From: an uncultured archaeon
GTDB lineage: Archaea; Asgardarchaeota; Thorarchaeia; Thorarchaeales; Thorarchaeaceae
Reading direction: 5' to 3'
DNA length: 62,138 bases
Assembly: GCA_964558645.1 (NCBI GenBank)
Contig: CAZLEV010000015.1
Span: 1-62,138, forward strand
Under the pieces are notes generated by a model that worked only from the letters and a program-made list of their open reading frames with translations, was not told the DNA's origin and ran no database searches. Shown one piece after another: positions 42,028 through 58,386 of the stretch (the stretch's first letter is position 1; each line of letters opens with the position of its first letter). The translations under genes and the position numbers were made by a program.

Positions 42028-42220
42028 GTGTATCACTTTTCCACAGGCATTCATAGAAGGAGCGTACCAAAGGAATGCACTGAGAAGCGCAGATTCTCGT
42101 TGCTACGTGACTCTCAATTTCTGCACTGCTACCTCCTCCGTGAAACGCCGACTTATAAACCTCAGGAAGAGATGCCCAAAGGATGCATAGAGCTGAGTTG
42201 AAGAAGACTCAACCTTTGTG

Positions 42221-43189
42221 CTAAGCGTAGAGAGGAGAGAGGGGCTCGTTCCAGCGTTTCAGAGTATCTAGAGTATGAGCGCGTATGTTACCAAGTACGT
42301 ATTTCGTCTTCCAATCGGGGGCTTCTGAGAGCTCAGTGTCCACTCGCTGAAGAAGAGCGCGGAGATGTTTCACGGGATCCTTTGCCCGTTCTCCCCAGTC
42401 CCATATGGAACACCAGATGCGTCCCAGGTGTTCTCCATATGCTTCTACTGCCTCTCTTCGGATCTCGGGAGACACTACTGTGGCAGGATGAAGCCAGGGC
42501 ATATCCGTACCATTGGCCGCAACGCCGAAGATTGCATTGGAGAAGAACCAATAGGATGGAATCTCCAATTCGTTGCTCAGGGCTCTGAATCTGATGGCAC
42601 CTGCCAGTCCGCCTGCAATAGAGTACACCAGAAGCGCTTTCGGGTCAGAGCCCTGTTGTATGGTTGCTCGGATGATCCTCTCCATCGTTCCACCAGTGGC
42701 GACAGTATCACCAATGATGATGAGCCCGTCAGAGGTGAGGGCCTCGAAGTTCTGGTATTCCAGGTCGGTGACCCAGCCTGTGTCAGTCAGTCTGCGTCTG
42801 GCTCCGATGAAACATCTGTTGAGGGTCTCCCCGAAGACATTCCTGAACGCACCACCAAGCCGATAATACAGTGCACCGGCCAACGGAACAATCTCGAACA
42901 CAGAGGAGAGAGTCGAGGTTCTCAGCTCGGGCGACAAGGCATAGGCCGTACGAAGAAAATCCTCGCTACTCTCACGAGCACGCTCTGCAAGCTCTGCGCC
43001 GATGATCCAAGGCTTGAGCAGGATGTCGAGAGCAGGGGCCGACTCGATTATGTAGGTGTTTCTGGGAAGATGATTACTGTCAGCCCTCAGAACTCTTGCG
43101 GAAAGCCCCTCTCCAGCTTCGGTTGGAGTCAGTCTTGTTTCTTCTGCGACTTGCGTTTGATCTCTCATTGCTGTCATCGGCTCATTCAC
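42221..43189 (-). CDS. Phosphoribosyltransferase-like protein
   Basis: LIIIGDTVATGGT PRPP-binding loop. Confidence 0.65.
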   Translation of the reverse strand: MNEPMTAMRDQTQVAEETRLTPTEAGEGLSARVLRADSNHLPRNTYIIESAPALDILLKPWIIGAELAERARESSEDFLRTAYALSPELRTSTLSSVFEIVPLAGALYYRLGGAFRNVFGETLNRCFIGARRRLTDTGWVTDLEYQNFEALTSDGLIIIGDTVATGGTMERIIRATIQQGSDPKALLVYSIAGGLAGAIRFRALSNELEIPSYWFFSNAIFGVAANGTDMPWLHPATVVSPEIRREAVEAYGEHLGRIWCSIWDWGERAKDPVKHLRALLQRVDTELSEAPDWKTKYVLGNIRAHTLDTLKRWNEPLSPLYA

Positions 43190-43427
43190 CTTGCCGGGAG
43201 TTAGTTCCCGTTTTTAGCTCTTGGTTTGTCGGATGATAATGAGAGATTACATGTATACAGGAGAAGAGCGACCAGTTTCGCGACATGGCATCCATAGAGA
43301 GAGATAGACTAGAACAAGACAGGACTGTAATGACCGGTGCATTCGGAGCCGACTTCGAAATCTTGGGACGAGATTCCAGCTTGCCTAACGACACCTTCTT
43401 TACTCCCGCGCGGTCACTAGCAGAACC

Positions 43428-47745: not shown

Positions 47746-48039
47746 ATAGCGAGAGACCAGCAACTCAAATGGAGAGCAGACTTCCACAGTGCGTTGAGTA
47801 ATCCCAACAGGCTGGAGATTATTGACCTTCTTGGAGAGGAGGAAGTATGTCAATGCGATATCTTTCCAGAGATTGGTCTGGCTCAGTCGACGGTGTCATC
47901 CTACTTGGCCCAGATGGTGCGAGCCGGAATCCTGCAGGTTCGCAAGGATGGAACGCGGAAACTGTACAGTGTGAGCGACAAGAGAATCAGCCATGTTGTG
48001 AAAAAGATACGTGAGCTTGCCAGAGACCTGGGGGACTAG
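47746..48039 (+). CDS. arsR: ArsR/SmtB regulator (probable ATA start)
   Basis: FHSALSNPNRLEII, CQCD, QSTVSSYL; the frame has no ATG/GTG/TTG upstream of the conserved helix. Confidence 0.85.
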   Translation: MARDQQLKWRADFHSALSNPNRLEIIDLLGEEEVCQCDIFPEIGLAQSTVSSYLAQMVRAGILQVRKDGTRKLYSVSDKRISHVVKKIRELARDLGD

Positions 48040-48191
48040 AATCGACTTAGCTCTCTGATAGTACTTCGAGATGAATCGGAAGTCGATAGTCCTAGAGTTT
48101 CACAGAGTCGTTTCTGGAAAGACCGTTTCCGCCCAGGAGATTCTAACCACAAATGAAAAGGTATGCCAGTAGATGGAGAGTTGCGGTTGAA

Positions 48192-48378
48192 CCGTTCATT
48201 GTATGTTGGATAGACTTCGATACCAGAGAGTTGTCCCCCCGGTGACGGCACTGGATGGTTTCTGTCGTGGTTAGCGATAATGTGTGAGTGATTGCTATCA
48301 TTCATTGGTCCGAAGATATGAAAATTCATGCTGGGATGTCCAGCTCTTTCCAAGTATTCTGTAGCTGTTGCTATACCC
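48192..48378 (-). mobile_element. Dispersed non-coding element, copy C
   Basis: GGGTATAGCAACAGCT ... CCAGTGCCGT...GGGGGGACAACTC ... CAATGAACGG on the minus strand. Confidence 0.8.
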
Positions 48379-48399
48379 AGAACCCTACTGCGTAATGCT

Positions 48400-48774
48400 T
48401 TACTTACTAGCTGTCCGTTCTCGGCACCGTTCTCGATAGCCAATAGCAATGGAGGAAACTATGCAGAGGAAGAAGGGACTGGTGATTACAAACAGCCAGC
48501 CGATGAGAAGGGGAACATCGGCATTGGAGAGAGAAAGGATCCAAGAGATTGGTAACTGCATGAGTATCAGAGCAACTACTAAAACTACAGCATCGATGTA
48601 CAGGTCTCCCGCTGCGCGACATGAGAAGGAACAGTAGTTCCGCCTGAAAGAGCCAGCGAAGAAGTGCCGCTCTAGCCAACTTGTGTTCTTCCCACACCAA
48701 GCACATCGCTGTGCAGTATCCCCGTATCTTCCACGCTTTGGATACTCATACCTGTCAGAATAATCTTCTCGCAA
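48400..48774 (-). CDS. Zn-finger (CxWC...YCSxxC) two-TM protein
   Basis: CAWCG, NYCSFSC, two hydrophobic helices. Confidence 0.65.
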   Translation of the reverse strand: MREDYSDRYEYPKRGRYGDTAQRCAWCGKNTSWLERHFFAGSFRRNYCSFSCRAAGDLYIDAVVLVVALILMQLPISWILSLSNADVPLLIGWLFVITSPFFLCIVSSIAIGYRERCRERTASK

Positions 48775-48997
48775 CTAGGTGTCTCCCTATCAATGGATTA
48801 CGACTAACCGCTGAATCTTTCATTTGAACACCATATGAGCTTACTGCCATGATCTCGGGATTAGGCCAAAAAGAGAATGCCAGCAGAGATAACCGAGAGG
48901 TGTTCACTGTCCGTTGTCGAATAATTGATCATGCCAGGACGTTGGATGTCTGGCCAATCCTAAGTGAAACTAAATCCAAGTTGACAAAGAAAGAGGA

Positions 48998-51323: not shown

Positions 51324-51957
51324 TCCCCTGACTTAAATCTCGCGATTATAAGGGCGGGAGAAACCGTCATTTCAGGCTGCTATCACGTCATGGTACTTGG
51401 AACACGTGTTCTAAGTATCTGGTTCTCGGGAATGAAGGTGTTTGGTGAGTAGCATCGATCGGTTCCAGAGGGTGCACCATAATAAGAGGGGAATGCCTAA
51501 GGTATGGTGGGAAAACACTAGCAATCTCAAGGTTTGAAGGATACGGCATCATCACCATAGCTGTAGATACAGGTAACATAGCCATATCCTCTTCCTGCAG
51601 CAAACAGTGTGGGAGTTTCTACAAAGACAGAATTGTCACACAGCCCCCTTGGAGAAACTATCAGCATACTAGACAAAATCAGAAGGTGTGTCCTCTTCAG
51701 TCACTCTTGAGGAGATCAAGCGGCTACTATAGATCGAACAAAGACCAAAGCGAACCTAACTGTTACCCACCCGTTTAATGACTGAAGATTGGTTGGTGGT
51801 GGTTCATCCTCGGGAGTAGTCACGTCGATTTCTCTTCGACTAGCTCACAGCGTTGGGCTTCTTGGACACGACTCAGGGTTCTCTTTAGGTGAGAGAACTT
51901 ATAACGTCACAAGAGCAGATATACCAAGGGGAAGAAGAACTGGCAGATAGCATGCAT

Positions 51958-52563
51958 ATGGGGAACTCGATGGACTCCTATCCAGCCGTATGCTGGTGGT
52001 GTGGAACAATCGAAACCGACAATTGGGTTGAACGGGAAGGCCGCATATACTGTTCAGTTGGGTGTCACCTCGCCGCGACCTACAAGGAAAACATAGGAAT
52101 GGGGTTCTGTTTCTTGTCGATAGCATTTTTGATGGGCGCAATCCACCCAGTGGGCGGCTTCTTTGGTCTTTTCTCGCTAATCTCGTTCCGGGTAGCCTAT
52201 GAAGGCAGGAAGTATCTCCACAAGAAGGATAAGTACGGCGCGCCTCCCCGGGAGAAGCTCCGCACACTTGACTTCTCGCAAAGACTGCCATCCCCTAGAC
52301 CAAGACTCAATTTGATCTGCTCTCATTGTGGTCATCTCAACCGGGTGGACATTTTAAGATGTGAGAACTGCGGGGCATCGCTTCTCGCGTCCGATTTGGC
52401 CAAACTGACCGTGGTCCCCTCTAGTAACTCCAAAAGAGTGAAGTGCCCCTGGTGTTCGGCGGTCTATTCCTACAGTCCGTCTAGTTTCAGGGAGGAGGGG
52501 AGTGTGGTCTGCCAGAACTGCAACAAGTCATTCTTCATCGAACAGAATGATGAAGATGACTGA
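51958..52563 (+). CDS. Zn-finger/TM/double zinc-ribbon protein
   Basis: CWWCG...YCSVGC, TM hairpin, four more CxxC. Confidence 0.72.
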   Translation: MGNSMDSYPAVCWWCGTIETDNWVEREGRIYCSVGCHLAATYKENIGMGFCFLSIAFLMGAIHPVGGFFGLFSLISFRVAYEGRKYLHKKDKYGAPPREKLRTLDFSQRLPSPRPRLNLICSHCGHLNRVDILRCENCGASLLASDLAKLTVVPSSNSKRVKCPWCSAVYSYSPSSFREEGSVVCQNCNKSFFIEQNDEDD

Positions 52564-52636
52564 TCCCGACTCTTGGGTGACAGATACTCAGAACTCCGAA
52601 CCTGTCGACCTCGTACGGCCAGAAATCTCAGAGGGT

Positions 52637-52825
52637 GGGTAGCGAAAGGCTGCCTGGAACAGGAACACAATTGGACACCTCAGAATGGGAAAACAAGTCC
52701 CCCAACCACCGACTGAGAGCTGGGTTCCAAGCTGCTGCCCGCAGAACCTGCAGAGAACCGCTGTCTGGAGCTTGAAACCTGCTCTAATGGTGGGAAGAAG
52801 AAGATTCAGTCAACACACGCACGAG
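52637..52825 (+). mobile_element. Dispersed non-coding element, degenerate copy E
   Basis: A 75-nt stretch aligns without gaps to copy A (49/75 by hand), ending GACTGAGAGCTGG; the 3' half is diverged. Confidence 0.55.
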
Positions 52826-52935
52826 TCAGAGAAACGTCACCGTTACACCCCCTCTTGCAGCAACACTTGACTATTCCGCATCTTCTCCCTCATAGAACCC
52901 GGCTCAAAGCTACAGGAGAGCTGTGAAGCCCAGAG

Positions 52936-53718
52936 TCACAGTGAGAACGCACCCTTGAACTTGCTGCTTCGATAGCAGGCCTTGATACATTTTCCACAGA
53001 TATCCTCAGTGATGCCCTTGGACTGAAGAAACAGCATATAGCGACGACAGTTCTCCCTGTAGTCAGGTAGAGCGTCACGATGCCTGATGAAGCCACAGGC
53101 ATCCTCACAGGCAGTGCAGTCGCCGCATCTAGACTCCATTCTCGTCCCGTGGAGAAGCGGGATTCCAGTGATCACCGATGCAAATCTTATGGCGCAACTG
53201 AACCTTTCATGTATGACGAGCTGGTTCTTCCCTCTCCATCCAATCCCCGCGTTCTCTGCCACCACTCTATGAGAGATGACCATGGGGAAGTACTCATGCA
53301 CATGCTCTATGTCCTCAATCACTCCACCCATCGTCGCCTCTAGCGCAATACCATGGAAACGGGACGCAATGCGCTCAGATAGCCTGTTCAGCAATTGATT
53401 CAGTCGGTCATACTCCTGTGCATACCTGTCCCAGAGCGGATAGTCCGGACTGTGATTCTTTTCCTCATCAATATAGTCAATGACAGGGTCCCGATATGCG
53501 ACTGCAATGCTGATTATGGAGCCCGAGTCGTAGAGGGAATGAAAGTCACTTCCCACAATCTCGCGAATCTTGGTCTTCTGTGCATCCATCAGTTCGTCGT
53601 ATACGACACTGAAACTCGCGACCCCGATGACGCCTCTCTCATGCTCCTCTTGGACCAGTTGGTGAAAGAACTCTGATAGCTCTCGGGTGTTCTCTTCAGC
53701 GTCGTTCATCCAATCCAT
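52936..53718 (-). CDS. Epoxyqueuosine reductase-like 4Fe-4S protein
   Basis: AGIGWRGKNQL, CGDCTACEDAC, CGKCIKAC. Confidence 0.8.
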   Translation of the reverse strand: MDWMNDAEENTRELSEFFHQLVQEEHERGVIGVASFSVVYDELMDAQKTKIREIVGSDFHSLYDSGSIISIAVAYRDPVIDYIDEEKNHSPDYPLWDRYAQEYDRLNQLLNRLSERIASRFHGIALEATMGGVIEDIEHVHEYFPMVISHRVVAENAGIGWRGKNQLVIHERFSCAIRFASVITGIPLLHGTRMESRCGDCTACEDACGFIRHRDALPDYRENCRRYMLFLQSKGITEDICGKCIKACYRSSKFKGAFSL

Positions 53719-56426: not shown

Positions 56427-56689
56427 ACACTGATGTGTCTAGGATTTGGCTGCACTCATAGTGCCTATAGCTGGTGAGGGATGCAGACAGCCCCGTGGAC
56501 AACGAGCATCCACGAGATGACTCTGTAAGGTACTGTGTAGGACTCTACACAGCCTGATTTCGGAGCCCTCACCTTGAAGTCAAGAATACAGACATTCCAT
56601 CCTCACAGAATTGGTCCAATGCCGCTTCTCGAGGGTCATCCAAGTCACACCAGATGCCTTTCTGCTCCAATACCAACGGGGGACCAGCA

Positions 56690-57612
56690 TCAACTCTCGT
56701 CCAGAAACTGCTTCAGACTCTGAGTGGCCTCCCTCGTGAGTCCTCGGATCACAATGGGAGAGATGGTGATATTGTTCCGCTCAGTGACCTCAATGATGTC
56801 TTCGGTGTCACCAAGATCGGTCTCGCCACCCTGAATCCAGTAGTAGGTGCCGCTGTAGGGGTCCTCTCTGGCCTCTATCCGGTTCGGTACGGCCGCAATA
56901 GTAGATTCGGTGATCACCAGTCTTGAGTCCTCTGTGACCGTTCATTGTAAATTGTACAATCTTGGACGCCAGAGTGATGTACTCCCAAGAACGGCACTGG
57001 GGAGACTCTGTGAGGCCATAGGGCGTGTCAGTCAACCTCATACTCTCATCTCTCTCCGGGAGTATATAAAGACCTACATATTTATTCAGATGCTCATCTA
57101 TGAAGTGTCCAACTTTGTCCCACTTCTATGCAACTGTTAACAACCCTTTTGGGAAAGTTCAGGTTGAGTACATCGATCCCTTCGGGGAAACCCTCTGCAA
57201 ATATGCACTCGATAATCCTGAGTGTGTGTGAGCAGATGAGGTCAAGGCCACTCTCGACACCGTTCTGCGTGAACCAGTACTTGGACTCGACATCCTGTGA
57301 CACAGCCAGAGCCGGATAGCCCTGCAGTGCGGCCTCCAGAGCGGCGCCAATCGTGCCACTGGTGAGCATACGGTGATAGCCAAGGTTAGCACCGGGGTTG
57401 ATCCCAGACACGAAGAGGTCAAAGTTATCTCGCATGGAGAGCGCAATGGGAACCGAGTCTGCAGGGAACCCGTCATGGATGATGAGTTCGTAGTCCTCGG
57501 TCTTGGAATGCTCAAGATAAACCATTTCTGACACATTGAGGCACCTCAACCTGTCGGAAACTTCTGTGTTCCACCCGTCCCCTGCCAGTGTCACCACTCC
57601 CAGCAGTCCCAA
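56690..57612 (-). pseudogene. surE: surE 5'/3'-nucleotidase, interrupted and 5'-degraded
   Basis: SGINPGANLG, SGTIGAALEA, LNLNFP | VTEDSRLVIT...DPYSGTYYWI; N-terminal NDDG motif absent. Confidence 0.85.
56938..57146 (-). mobile_element. Dispersed non-coding element, copy D, inserted in surE
   Basis: Removing 56939-57144 (206 bp) restores CCC AAA AGG GTC ACA (P-K-R-V-T) in frame. Confidence 0.88.
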
Positions 57613-58386
57613 AGGACGCTGAGGCAGCAGAGGCTTTGTCCATGCTCATCGGGATGGGATCCCTCCCACGGTCCTGGCCTCCTCCTCCTGTGTTCTTCCT
57701 GAGGTATCACTCTCAGCCACAGCAAGGCTTTCCACAGTTCTTACCACGGCGGGTTCATGATCACCCTTCCTGACCTCGTCACCGAAGGCAGCAAGGCTCG
57801 TTTGAGCATGGTGAACAGCCGCGGACTCTCCGGGACCTGATGGGGCCCCTTACCTGGAGAGTAAAGACCTCCGTCGAGAAGAACCAGTCTTCCCTCGGGT
57901 CTTCGGCCGCGAGCTCCGTGCTACAGCACTGGCCCACTCACCTAGTCCTATATCTTGGTATGAACGGCACTATATAGACTCCTCTCGGTATGGTCTCTTC
58001 AGGGGAGAACAAGCAAAATCTGACACATTTCTGACACTTCTATCTGACAGATTAACCAGGAAAAGGCGGTATTTTCATGCTTCAAGAATCCTGATGGGAT
58101 GACCAAGACTGAGAGCCTTCCCTGAGCCGCTGCGCTGGCTGTCCGGAATCACTGCAAGCACGTCGTTGCTCTCTGACAGGACGGCCAGCAGCCGCTTCAT
58201 GCCGACACTTGCCGGTCCATCGTCGTCCATCAGGCAGATCGTGTGCAACTGTTATCTCTCCGTGTCGGTATACTCGTACCGTCAGGGTTTGAATCTTCTG
58301 ATAAGAGCTGGGCAAGTCCATTTTACGCTGAACCCGTCAAGAACCGGGACTTCGATTGCTTTCTCACTTGTTAGGGATGGTCAGGT

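What the first reader, a model, noticed from the sequence alone, without database searches (positions are those of the whole stretch)
56690..57612. Direct evidence of mobility: copy D splits surE at a GGG site
Seen: the surE frame reads ...NLNFPKR, breaks, and resumes VTEDSRLVIT...EDPYSGTYYWI. Excising exactly 206 bp restores the frame. The target AGGGTC has GG at both junctions and no long TSD. This fixes the element ends to within 1-3 nt. Inference: if transcribed, the flank TCACAGAGGACTCAAGACTG would be a guide matching the empty surE allele next to a GGG TAM-like motif, as in TnpB-based retention/homing.
Basis: partly seen in the sequence, partly recalled or inferred. Interest (0 to 1): 0.75.

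Follow-up and report, generated by a model that had tools for sequence, protein, structure and literature searches.

The report
IS607-type mini-transposon splitting surE
A 206-base gene-less jumping element of a known transposon family (IS607) landed in the surE gene of an Asgard (Thorarchaeota) archaeon. Two sister genomes still have the unbroken site, and the element carries the folded guide-RNA part that a TnpB nuclease could use to cut that unbroken site.

Summary
surE (minus strand) reads NLNFPKR, is interrupted, and resumes VTEDSRLVIT. Removing exactly 206 bp (57144..56939, movable within a shared GGT) restores the frame. Two same-genus genomes carry the empty site ...AGAGGG|TCACAGAGGACTCAAGACTG, one of them in an intact 260-aa surE.

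Copy D is a gene-less derivative of an IS607-family transposon. Its left end matches the end upstream of serine-recombinase tnpA genes: a GG terminus, two phased GGACA repeats and a TATA box. Its last 80 nt match the 3' end of ~720-aa tnpB genes. They fold into two helices plus a pseudoknot, with strong covariation in 29 other genomes.

GG at both junctions, GG in the empty target and no duplication are the IS607 hallmark. The (A/T)GGG left flank against the ...ACGG right tip parallels the published TGGG TAM and TCGG end of the C. botulinum IS607 IStron.

Transcription, TnpB loading and cleavage are untested, and this assembly holds only broken tnpA copies.

This is a new member of a known kind. 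Earlier reports of this scan reached the same reading on other copies in this genome. surE also carries a second, unrelated 565-bp mini-element.

The parts
58078..58248 (-). surE N-terminal piece (57 codons, MHTICLMDDDG...PIRILE)
   Evidence: Pfam SurE, profile positions 1-52, E 3.5e-9. It tiles residues 1-56 of the intact G001 SurE.
57517..58082 (-). Second, unrelated mini-element of 565-566 bp inside surE, with TCTTGA at both junctions. It is derived from the 3' end of the ~570-590-aa TnpB family.
   Evidence: Absent from G001, where the empty site reads ATTCTTGA|GCACTCC. At least 8 copies at 79-87% identity in G000. Positions 134-534 match the 3' end of the tnpB at C26:35569-35969.
57145..57516 (-). 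surE middle piece (...EHSKTEDYEL...NLNFPKR)
   Evidence: Pfam SurE, profile positions 47-171, E 1.6e-24. 95% identical to G001 SurE.
56938..57146 (-). Copy D with both GG junctions. The mobile part is 206 bp (for example 57143..56938). Read on the minus strand it runs GGG-TTGTTAACAGTTGC ... ACAATGAACGG.
   Evidence: Exact 206-bp difference from the empty sites in G001 and G002. Two near-identical copies lie at C1:352680-352884 (99.5-100%) and C1:208374-208580 (95%).
57106..57146 (-). Left end: GG(G) terminus, AACAGTTGC, and two direct GGACA repeats 10-11 bp apart (57121..57106). These are presumed serine-TnpA binding motifs.
   Evidence: Homologous to the sequence just upstream of serine tnpA genes or relics in G000 (C2:462416, C5:222137) and in relatives (L102-L109). 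Phased direct repeats are typical of IS607 ends (PMC6188088).
57063..57070 (-). TATA box TTTATATA pointing towards the right end. The predicted RNA start is near 57040.
   Evidence: In the 19 of 44 copies scored by a strict TATA pattern, the box starts 124-145 nt from the right tip, and 131-134 nt in 17 of them, in copies of different length and from different genera. The start site is inferred from the usual archaeal spacing of about 26 nt.
56938..57017 (-). Right-end RNA module (3' part of the TnpB omega-RNA scaffold). H1 is CAGAGU/ACUCUG, H2 is CCCAG/UUGGG, and H3 is the pseudoknot GUACA/UGUAC. The tip is ...AACGG.
   Evidence: Covariance model R1 scores it 87.1 bits, E 6e-19. The same model hits the 3' ends of the 720-aa tnpB genes. 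For covariation.
56918..56937 (-). Flank that would be read as the guide (TCACAGAGGACTCAAGACTG). It is also surE codons VTEDSRL.
   Evidence: Identical over 20 of 20 nt to the empty allele in G001 and G002, where it directly follows AGGG. A guide role is inferred.
56690..56938 (-). surE C-terminal piece (VTEDSRLVITE...QFLDES, then stop)
   Evidence: 96% identical to residues 179-260 of G001 SurE.

Best explanation
Copy D is a non-autonomous, gene-less derivative (MITE) of an IS607-family transposon of Thorarchaeota.

Shown:
- It inserted into surE at ...AGG-GG-T... with no target duplication and GG at both junctions.
- Sister genomes keep the empty site.
- Its left end is the left end of elements that encode a serine-recombinase TnpA. 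Its right end is the 3' end of ~720-aa tnpB genes.
- That right end encodes a conserved, covarying RNA fold.

Inferred mechanism:
- A serine TnpA supplied in trans excises the element as a double-stranded circle and recombines its GG with a genomic GG. The left junction keeps the donor core and the right junction keeps the target core.
- The TATA box inherited from the tnpA promoter drives a scaffold of about 100 nt that runs across the ...ACGG tip into the flank.
- A TnpB made elsewhere in the genome would load this RNA and cut any empty copy of the site (TAM (A/T)GGG plus 16-20 matching nt).
- The element's own right junction (ACGG) is spared. The cut site is repaired from a filled copy, which gives retention or homing.

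surE was already broken by another mini-element, and a paralogue exists, so no cost to the host is implied.
For: **Insertion**
- The 206-bp difference and the empty sites.
- A second polymorphic copy sits in G001 at a site that is empty in G000 and G002. Its left junction is GG and its right junction is GA, the target's own core. Mixed cores of this kind were reported for the C. botulinum IS607 TnpA.
- A sister copy (C1:208374-208579) splits an ADP-ribosylglycohydrolase gene. Excising 206 bp rejoins Pfam positions 5-111 and 120-287 in frame.

**IS607 identity**
- No Y1 TnpA was found.
- IS607 tnpA relics: NF033518, E 4.5e-16.
- Left-end homology.
- Full elements (left end, tnpA, giant ORF, tnpB, right end) of about 8.6 kb in relatives.

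**TnpB**
- PF07282 at 3e-12 and guided_TnpB at 3.6e-20.
- The RuvC-II Glu, RuvC-III Asp and zinc finger align with Cas12f.
- Three full-length genes in G000.

**RNA**
- 83% of cells paired in G000 copies, against 31-47% when the partners are slid.
- 97% against 37-49% in 30 hits from 29 other genomes, with 49 double changes against 1-11.
- The pseudoknot, which was not in the model, is 93% paired with GC, UA and CG at one position.

**Flanks**
- GGG precedes the left end in 36 of 41 mini-elements.
- The tip is ...ACGG in 46 of 53.
- The first flank base is T in 48 of 53.
- TATA-to-tip spacing is 131-134 nt in 17 of 19 scored copies.
Against: - No intact serine tnpA is in this assembly (92.8% complete) or was found in its two congeners, only N-terminal relics. 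Yet 99.5-100% identical copies imply recent movement, so the transposase source is unknown.
- No expression data exist. The TATA box could be an inherited tnpA promoter without present use.
- Covariation may have arisen in the parental tnpB-bearing elements rather than under selection in the mini-elements.
- Several relatives hold many right-end modules but no detectable TnpB of this family. G012 has 49 hits and no TnpB at E<=1e-40. G008 has 66 hits and one fragment. So persistence does not need TnpB on that time scale.
- The ~720-aa TnpB is far from any tested homologue (best solved match Cas12f, E 2.6e-4). Its TAM is therefore only read from flanks.
Confidence: 0.85

Rival explanations
1. 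The element is an IS607-derived mini-transposon, but its RNA module is a dead relic. It is moved by TnpA alone, is not transcribed into a working guide, and TnpB plays no part in its retention.
For: TnpB is dispensable for IS607 transposition (PMC6188088). Some genomes have dozens of right-end modules and no TnpB of this family. Many G000 copies are degraded, with only 83% of cells paired.
Against: Among the copies scored, the TATA box keeps a spacing of 131-134 nt from the tip in 17 of 19, although copies differ by up to 21 nt upstream of it. C at -3 of the tip is nearly invariant and G at -3 of the left flank is strongly kept, which is the self/non-self pair described for the C. botulinum TnpB. 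Three intact TnpB genes are present in G000.
Confidence: 0.3
2. It is an IS200/IS605-type palindrome-associated element (PATE), moved as single-stranded DNA by a Y1 tyrosine TnpA, with GGG as the target motif.
For: PATEs that carry omega-RNAs are known (PMC10055086). The element has no target duplication and has a fixed motif at the left flank.
Against: PF01797 was not found in G000. The left end is homologous to the ends upstream of serine tnpA genes. GG stands at both termini and in the target. The ends carry direct repeats rather than subterminal hairpins. One insertion shows mixed GG/GA junctions.
Confidence: 0.03
3. The 206-bp insert behaves as an intron (tRNA-type bulge-helix-bulge, or a group I intron as in IStrons), so surE is still expressed.
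For: The insert lies in the sense orientation in surE, and so does the sister copy in the ADP-ribosylglycohydrolase gene. IS607 IStrons exist. A note of this scan reports a bulge-helix-bulge intron in another gene of this genome (unchecked).
Against: No Rfam family, group I introns included, matches 56600-58300 at E<=1. 206 nt is too short for a group I intron. By inspection, the exon ends (CCCAAAAGG and GTCACAGAGG) cannot pair to form the outer helices of a bulge-helix-bulge motif. surE is also broken by the 565-bp insert.
Confidence: 0.02
4. The split is an assembly artefact of a metagenome-assembled genome: a repeat wrongly placed in surE.
For: The genome is a 37-contig MAG with 6.3% contamination. 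In the relative G002, the contig changes locus at the other mini-element.
Against: Both junctions lie inside one 62-kb contig with unique surE sequence on each side. The junction anatomy (GG on both sides, 206 bp) is the same as at the other copies. The same kind of filled/empty difference occurs in the reverse direction, with G001 filled and G000 empty.
Confidence: 0.02

Closest known systems
IS607-family IStron of Clostridium botulinum: TnpA_S, TnpB and omega-RNA (Zedaveinyte et al., bioRxiv 10.1101/2023.11.20.567912)
   Same: A serine TnpA with a GG core dinucleotide and scarless excision and integration. The target and TAM are NGGG (TGGG there, (A/T)GGG here). The scaffold ends in ...CGG, so position -3 tells self from the empty site. 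The left junction keeps the donor core and the right junction the target core. Mini-elements lacking both genes are mobilised in trans.
   Different: There is no group I intron here. The host is an Asgard archaeon. The natural mini-element has its own TATA box in front of the RNA. The partner TnpB is about 720 aa with an unmatched 480-aa N-terminal part. Nothing has been tested here.
IS607, IS1535 and ISC1926 (Chen et al. 2018, PMC6188088; Kersulyte et al. 2000 as cited there)
   Same: GG at the termini and in the unoccupied target; (G)GG preferred; no target duplication; short, helically phased direct repeats inside the ends; a MerR-type HTH plus serine-recombinase TnpA.
   Different: Those elements are 1.7-2.5 kb and almost filled by tnpA and tnpB. 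Here the full elements are about 8.6 kb with a giant extra ORF, and copy D has no gene at all.
Palindrome-associated transposable elements (PATEs) carrying omega-RNAs in Geobacillus stearothermophilus (Meers et al. 2023, PMC10055086)
   Same: Protein-free mini-elements that keep the transposon ends and a guide-RNA gene. They depend in trans on a transposase and on TnpB.
   Different: PATEs belong to IS200/IS605: a Y1 transposase, single-stranded DNA, hairpin ends and a TTGAT-type TAM.
aCas1-associated TnpBs of Asgard archaea (Cas1H-Asgard-1 and -2; Altae-Tran et al. 2023, PMC10691335)
   Same: Large Asgard TnpBs paired head to head with a giant gene. Both TnpB families of this genome show that pairing.
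   Different: I could not confirm a Cas1 domain in the giant ORF. The published T + variable stretch + GTTCACTCA signature fits the other (570-590 aa) family seen here, not the family whose right end copy D carries.

Membership tests
IS607-family transposon (non-autonomous derivative) | Ends shared with elements that encode a serine-recombinase TnpA (MerR-like HTH plus catalytic Ser) | tested here: met
   The left end of copy D aligns with the sequence upstream of tnpA relics in G000 and of intact tnpA genes in relatives (NF033518 up to 195 bits). The right end aligns with the end of the same elements.
IS607-family transposon (non-autonomous derivative) | GG at both termini, GG in the unoccupied target, no target-site duplication | tested here: met
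   Filled: AAAAG-GG-TTGTT ... GAAC-GG-TCACAG. Empty: AGAG-GG-TCACAG in G001 and G002. A second case has a GA target core.
IS607-family transposon (non-autonomous derivative) | Short, phased, directly repeated motifs inside the ends (TnpA binding sites) | tested here: met
   Two GGACA repeats 10-11 bp apart lie 25-41 nt from the left terminus. Two inverted copies lie 15-32 nt from the right terminus. Binding by TnpA was not tested.
IS607-family transposon (non-autonomous derivative) | Excision as a double-stranded circle by TnpA | not testable with these tools
   This needs reads or an assay. The expected circle junction is ...ACAATGAACGG-TTGTTAACAG...
TnpB omega-RNA (guide-RNA scaffold) | Lies at the 3' end of tnpB and the right end, on the same strand, ending at the transposon boundary | tested here: met
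   A model built from mini-elements alone hits the 3' ends of tnpB genes at C14, C1, C6, C5 and C16. The CCAGTGCCGTT...CTGG hairpin overlaps the codons for the PSAVAGRT tail.
TnpB omega-RNA (guide-RNA scaffold) | Conserved secondary structure supported by compensatory changes | tested here: met
   97.2% paired, 49 double-change cells, 0 of 500 shuffles, slid controls 37-49%. Caveat: the alignment is fitted to H1 and H2, but the pseudoknot H3 was not in the model.
TnpB omega-RNA (guide-RNA scaffold) | Transcribed, bound by TnpB, and guiding cleavage next to a TAM | not testable with these tools
   There are no RNA data. The TAM is read only from flanks: GGG in 36 of 41 mini-elements.
IS200/IS605 PATE | Y1 (HUH) TnpA in the genome and ends shared with it | tested here: not met
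   PF01797 was not found in G000, while the control genomes ring. The ends go with serine tnpA genes.
IStron or archaeal intron | Group I intron core, or a bulge-helix-bulge motif at the junctions | tested here: not met
   No Rfam match at E<=1. The insert is 206 nt. By inspection, the exon ends are not complementary.

The most novel reading that the evidence does not exclude
The mini-elements are protein-free homing units. Each copy is a stand-alone guide-RNA gene, with a promoter held at a fixed distance from the scaffold, that programs a TnpB made elsewhere to cut the empty allele of its own insertion site. If so, dozens of gene-less elements would be kept, and driven through Thorarchaeota populations, by a few large TnpB genes. 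This would be a natural guide library of an IS607-type system in the archaeal relatives of eukaryotes, whose Fanzor nucleases are thought to descend from IS607-type TnpBs.
Probability: 0.4. Interest if true: 0.6.

Novelty: new member of a known kind. Interest (0 to 1): 0.42.

Why it matters
This gives a clean natural before/after pair for an IS607-type element in Asgard archaea. It shows the exact ends, the GG crossover, the target motif, and one insertion with mixed core dinucleotides, as seen in laboratory assays with a bacterial IS607.

It shows that the family is or was recently active in Thorarchaeota. Right-end modules occur in 42 of 61 genomes sampled, up to 66 per genome. The element breaks ordinary genes.

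It also offers a compact, testable set: a predicted RNA scaffold of about 100 nt, a predicted NGGG TAM, and ~720-aa TnpBs that are far from any characterised homologue.

The kind of element itself is already known, and this scan had already recognised the family on other copies.

Tried and rejected
- RNAalifold on a 125-nt alignment of all 23 copies gave no structure, because the 5' halves of the subfamilies do not align. I then read helices from the sequences and tested them on the 80-nt module and on an independent set.
- Single-sequence minimum-energy folds were inconsistent.
- Rfam gave no match under either threshold.
- The bacterial-type promoter and terminator scan found nothing, and it is not suited to archaea.
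- Test of the claim that the giant ORF begins with a Cas1 domain: Pfam on the whole protein and on five N-termini, a profile against PDB sequences and the protein atlas gave nothing. An AlphaFold model from a 5-sequence alignment had pLDDT 48 and was not searched. The claim is therefore neither confirmed nor refuted here.
- My first guess was that only the 570-590-aa TnpB family is the published aCas1-linked one. I dropped it after seeing that both families pair with giant ORFs.
- The Y1/PATE, intron and assembly-artefact readings were rejected for the reasons given under rival explanations.

Full report
**Observation.** The window belongs to a 3.63-Mb, 37-contig archaeal assembly. Names given to homologues of its TnpB place it in Thorarchaeota, an Asgard lineage.

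surE lies on the minus strand in three pieces:
- 58248..58078, Pfam SurE positions 1-52.
- 57516..57145, positions 47-171.
- 56938..56693, which has no Pfam hit of its own.

The frame ends ...aaa agg at 57145 and resumes gtc aca gag at 56938. The 206 bases between them are copy D. GGT stands at both junctions, so four 206-bp excisions give the same product.

Two same-genus genomes carry the predicted empty site, CCCAAGAGGG|TCACAGAGGACTCAAGACTG. G001 has an uninterrupted 260-aa SurE. The three window pieces tile it at 95-96% identity, with nothing lost or gained at KR|VT.

**A second break.** Between the first two pieces lies a 565-bp insert (58082..57517) with TCTTGA at both junctions. It is absent from G001. 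It belongs to a different repeat family with at least 8 copies in G000. This family carries the 3' end of a 570-590-aa tnpB family and the region downstream of it.

G002 shares the insert's right junction with surE, but its left flank comes from another locus and also ends in TCTTGA. That points to a fixed target motif rather than a duplication, and to either recombination between copies or a chimeric contig. G002 has this insert but lacks copy D, so copy D probably landed in a gene that was already broken. A 54%-identical surE paralogue lies on C18.

**The element family.**
- BLAST finds about 17 full-length copies (181-207 bp) and about 15 partial copies in G000, at 73-100% identity.
- Copy D has two close sisters: C1:352680-352884 (99.5-100%) and C1:208374-208580 (95%).
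- The second sister splits an ADP-ribosylglycohydrolase gene. Excising 206 bp rejoins Pfam positions 5-111 and 120-287 in frame.

Read in the surE sense, every copy has the same order of parts:
- a GGG flank;
- T(A/T)TACCAACAGCTAC;
- two GGACA repeats 10-11 bp apart;
- a TATA-like box;
- a variable stretch;
- an 80-nt conserved module that ends ...TGTCCAAGTTTGTCCAAC.TACAATGAACGG.

**Where the two ends come from.** The last 30-80 nt match the 3' end of a 719-aa gene at C14:53967-56123 and its paralogues. These genes are TnpB-like:
- PF07282, E 3e-12.
- NCBIfam guided_TnpB, E 3.6e-20, on residues 486-704.
- The first 480 residues are unmatched.
- The RuvC-II Glu, RuvC-III Asp and CxxC zinc finger align with Cas12f. 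The GADRG motif supplies the RuvC-I Asp by inspection.

No Y1 TnpA was found. G000 does hold three truncated IS607-type serine tnpA relics (NF033518, E 4.5e-16). The sequence just upstream of them is homologous to the left end of the mini-elements, base for base in the GGG-TT..ACAGC..GGACA..TTGGACA part.

Intact tnpA genes occur in 16 of 61 family genomes. In four relatives I recovered whole elements of about 8.6 kb. Their order is left end, tnpA (~210 aa), a giant ORF of 1,430-1,880 aa, tnpB (712-735 aa), right end. Each is preceded by GGG or AGG and ends ACAAT(C/G)AACGG. The G000 copy on C14 keeps the giant ORF, tnpB and the right end, but no tnpA or left end was found.

Copy D is thus an internal-deletion derivative. 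It joins the left end, with its tnpA promoter, to the last ~130 nt of the element.

**Why IS607.** The defining traits of the family are:
- GG at both termini;
- GG at the exchange point of the unoccupied target;
- a (G)GG preference;
- no duplication;
- phased direct repeats in the ends (PMC6188088).

All are met here.

A reciprocal case adds detail. G001 has a mini-element at a site that is empty in G000 (window 56443/56444) and in G002. The target reads CTAG-GA-T. The left junction carries GG and the right junction GA. Donor core on the left and target core on the right is what was reported when the C. botulinum IS607 TnpA was given mismatched cores. Variant tips (ACGA, ACGC, ACAG, ACGT) in otherwise near-identical copies, such as the C1:352680 sister of D, are explained the same way.

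**The RNA.** From the G000 copies I read three helices in the 80-nt module:
- H1: CAGAGN with NCUCUG.
- H2: CCCAG with CUGGG, around the loop UGCCGUUAC.
- H3: GGACAA with UUGUCC, which forms a pseudoknot with H1.

On 22 G000 copies, 83% of cells pair against 31-47% when the partners are slid. There are 21 double changes against 2-6, and 0 of 500 shuffles reach the observed score.

A covariance model with H1 and H2 only finds:
- 46 places in G000, including the tnpB 3' ends;
- matches in 42 of 61 family genomes, up to 66 per genome.

On the 30 best hits from 29 other genomes, which played no part in deriving the structure:
- 97.2% of cells pair, against 37-49% slid;
- there are 49 double changes against 1-11;
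- H1 runs through CG/AU, GC/AU/CG and UA/AU/CG pairs;
- H3, which the model did not contain, is 93% paired, with GC, UA and CG at one position, while the neighbouring TGTCC repeat stays unchanged.

That last point argues for RNA pairing rather than joint drift of protein-binding sites. In one full element (L109), H2 reads CCCAC/GUGGG inside the tnpB reading frame.

The caveats are these. The hits were chosen by the model. Related copies are not independent. The covariation may date from the tnpB-bearing parents.

**Promoter.** A strict TATA pattern (TTTATATA, TTTAAATA, CTATATCC and the like) scored 19 of 44 copies.
- In 17 of these 19, the box starts 131-134 nt before the tip; the other two lie at 124 and 145 nt.
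- This holds in copies that differ by up to 21 nt upstream of the box and come from several genera.
- Other copies carry looser CTTAAATA-type boxes that the pattern did not score.
- The box sits where the tnpA promoter lies in full elements.

With the usual archaeal spacing this predicts an RNA start about 100 nt before the tip. The start site is inferred.

**Target motif and guide.**
- GGG precedes the left end in 36 of 41 mini-elements (18 of 22 in G000, 18 of 19 elsewhere). Position -4 is mostly A or T.
- The right tip is ...ACGG in 46 of 53 copies.
- The first flank base is T in 48 of 53.

For the C. botulinum IS607 IStron, both the TnpA target and the TnpB TAM are TGGG. The scaffold ends UCGG, and position -3 separates the empty site from the element's own right junction. 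The arrangement here, (A/T)GGG against ACGG, is the same.

The 20 nt after copy D's tip are identical to the empty allele in G001 and G002, directly after AGGG.

**What is not shown.**
- There are no expression, binding or cleavage data.
- No intact tnpA was found in this MAG or, with the family profile, in its two congeners. Near-identical copies nonetheless imply recent movement.
- Some relatives keep many modules without a detectable TnpB of this family: G012 has 49 and none, G008 has 66 and a fragment. TnpB is therefore not needed for persistence on that time scale. This agrees with its dispensability for IS607 transposition.

**Comparison and novelty.** Protein-free mini-elements that carry omega-RNAs are described for IS200/IS605 as PATEs (PMC10055086). 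Gene-less IS607 mini-elements have been used in the laboratory. I found no paper describing natural IS607-derived mini-elements or this family in Thorarchaeota. The searched library does not cover all journals.

Large Asgard TnpBs paired with giant aCas1 genes have been catalogued (PMC10691335). Both TnpB families here pair head to head with giant ORFs. I could not confirm a Cas1 domain.

Earlier reports of this scan, on other copies in this genome, reached the same IS607 mini-transposon reading. I reached it independently before reading them. This report adds the empty sites, the mixed-core insertion, the independent covariation test and the promoter spacing.

**Verdict.** This is a real and cleanly documented insertion of a new member of a known kind. 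Interest is moderate.

Noticed in passing
window 57517-58082 (minus strand): A second mini-element of 565 bp in surE, from a different family: at least 8 copies in G000, derived from the 3' end of the 570-590-aa tnpB genes. TCTTGA stands at both junctions, and also at the unrelated left flank in G002, which suggests a fixed target motif. It carries direct TGTCAGA repeats at both ends and its own TATA box.
   Followed up: partly
window 56443/56444; G001:C48:14104-14291 (L047:796-983): G001 has a mini-element of the copy-B type at a site that is empty in G000 and G002. The target core is GA. The left junction is GG and the right junction GA, so the donor core is kept on the left and the target core on the right.
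   Followed up: yes
G000:C1:208374-208579 (L003): A sister of copy D (95% identical) splits an ADP-ribosylglycohydrolase gene in the sense orientation. Excising 206 bp restores a 296-codon frame.
   Followed up: yes
L106, L107, L108, L109; own copy L110 (G000:C14:53000-66000): The full elements are about 8.6 kb: left end, serine tnpA, a giant ORF of 1,430-1,880 aa with no Pfam domain, a ~720-aa tnpB, and the right end. The giant ORF is mostly divergent from tnpB. Earlier scan notes call its N-terminus Cas1-like, which I could not confirm or refute.
   Followed up: partly
G000:C2:426249-432758 and C6:129131-136156: Both TnpB families of this genome (about 574 aa and about 726 aa) sit head to head with giant ORFs (1,541 and 1,571 aa). 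This recalls the two published aCas1-linked Asgard TnpB groups.
   Followed up: no
G012, G008 and G014 (family relatives): These genomes hold 49-66 right-end RNA modules each. With the C14 query, their TnpB of this family is absent, fragmentary or stop-containing.
   Followed up: no
window 42170-43368, 48039-48990 and 51414-52936: Stretches of 1.2, 0.95 and 1.5 kb are present in G000 but replaced by 18, 138 and 502 bp in the syntenic G001 contig. Two of them contain mini-element copies (C and the degenerate copy near 52637-52825). This region is a hotspot of insertions.
   Followed up: no
G002:C200 (L046:880-960): To the left of the 565-bp element, the G002 contig continues into a locus that is homologous to G000:C11:112559-113362 instead of the surE start. 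This is either recombination between element copies or a chimeric MAG contig.
   Followed up: partly
G000:C18:11941-12303: A second surE-like gene (54% identical, in a 299-codon open frame) could cover the function of the broken copy.
   Followed up: no
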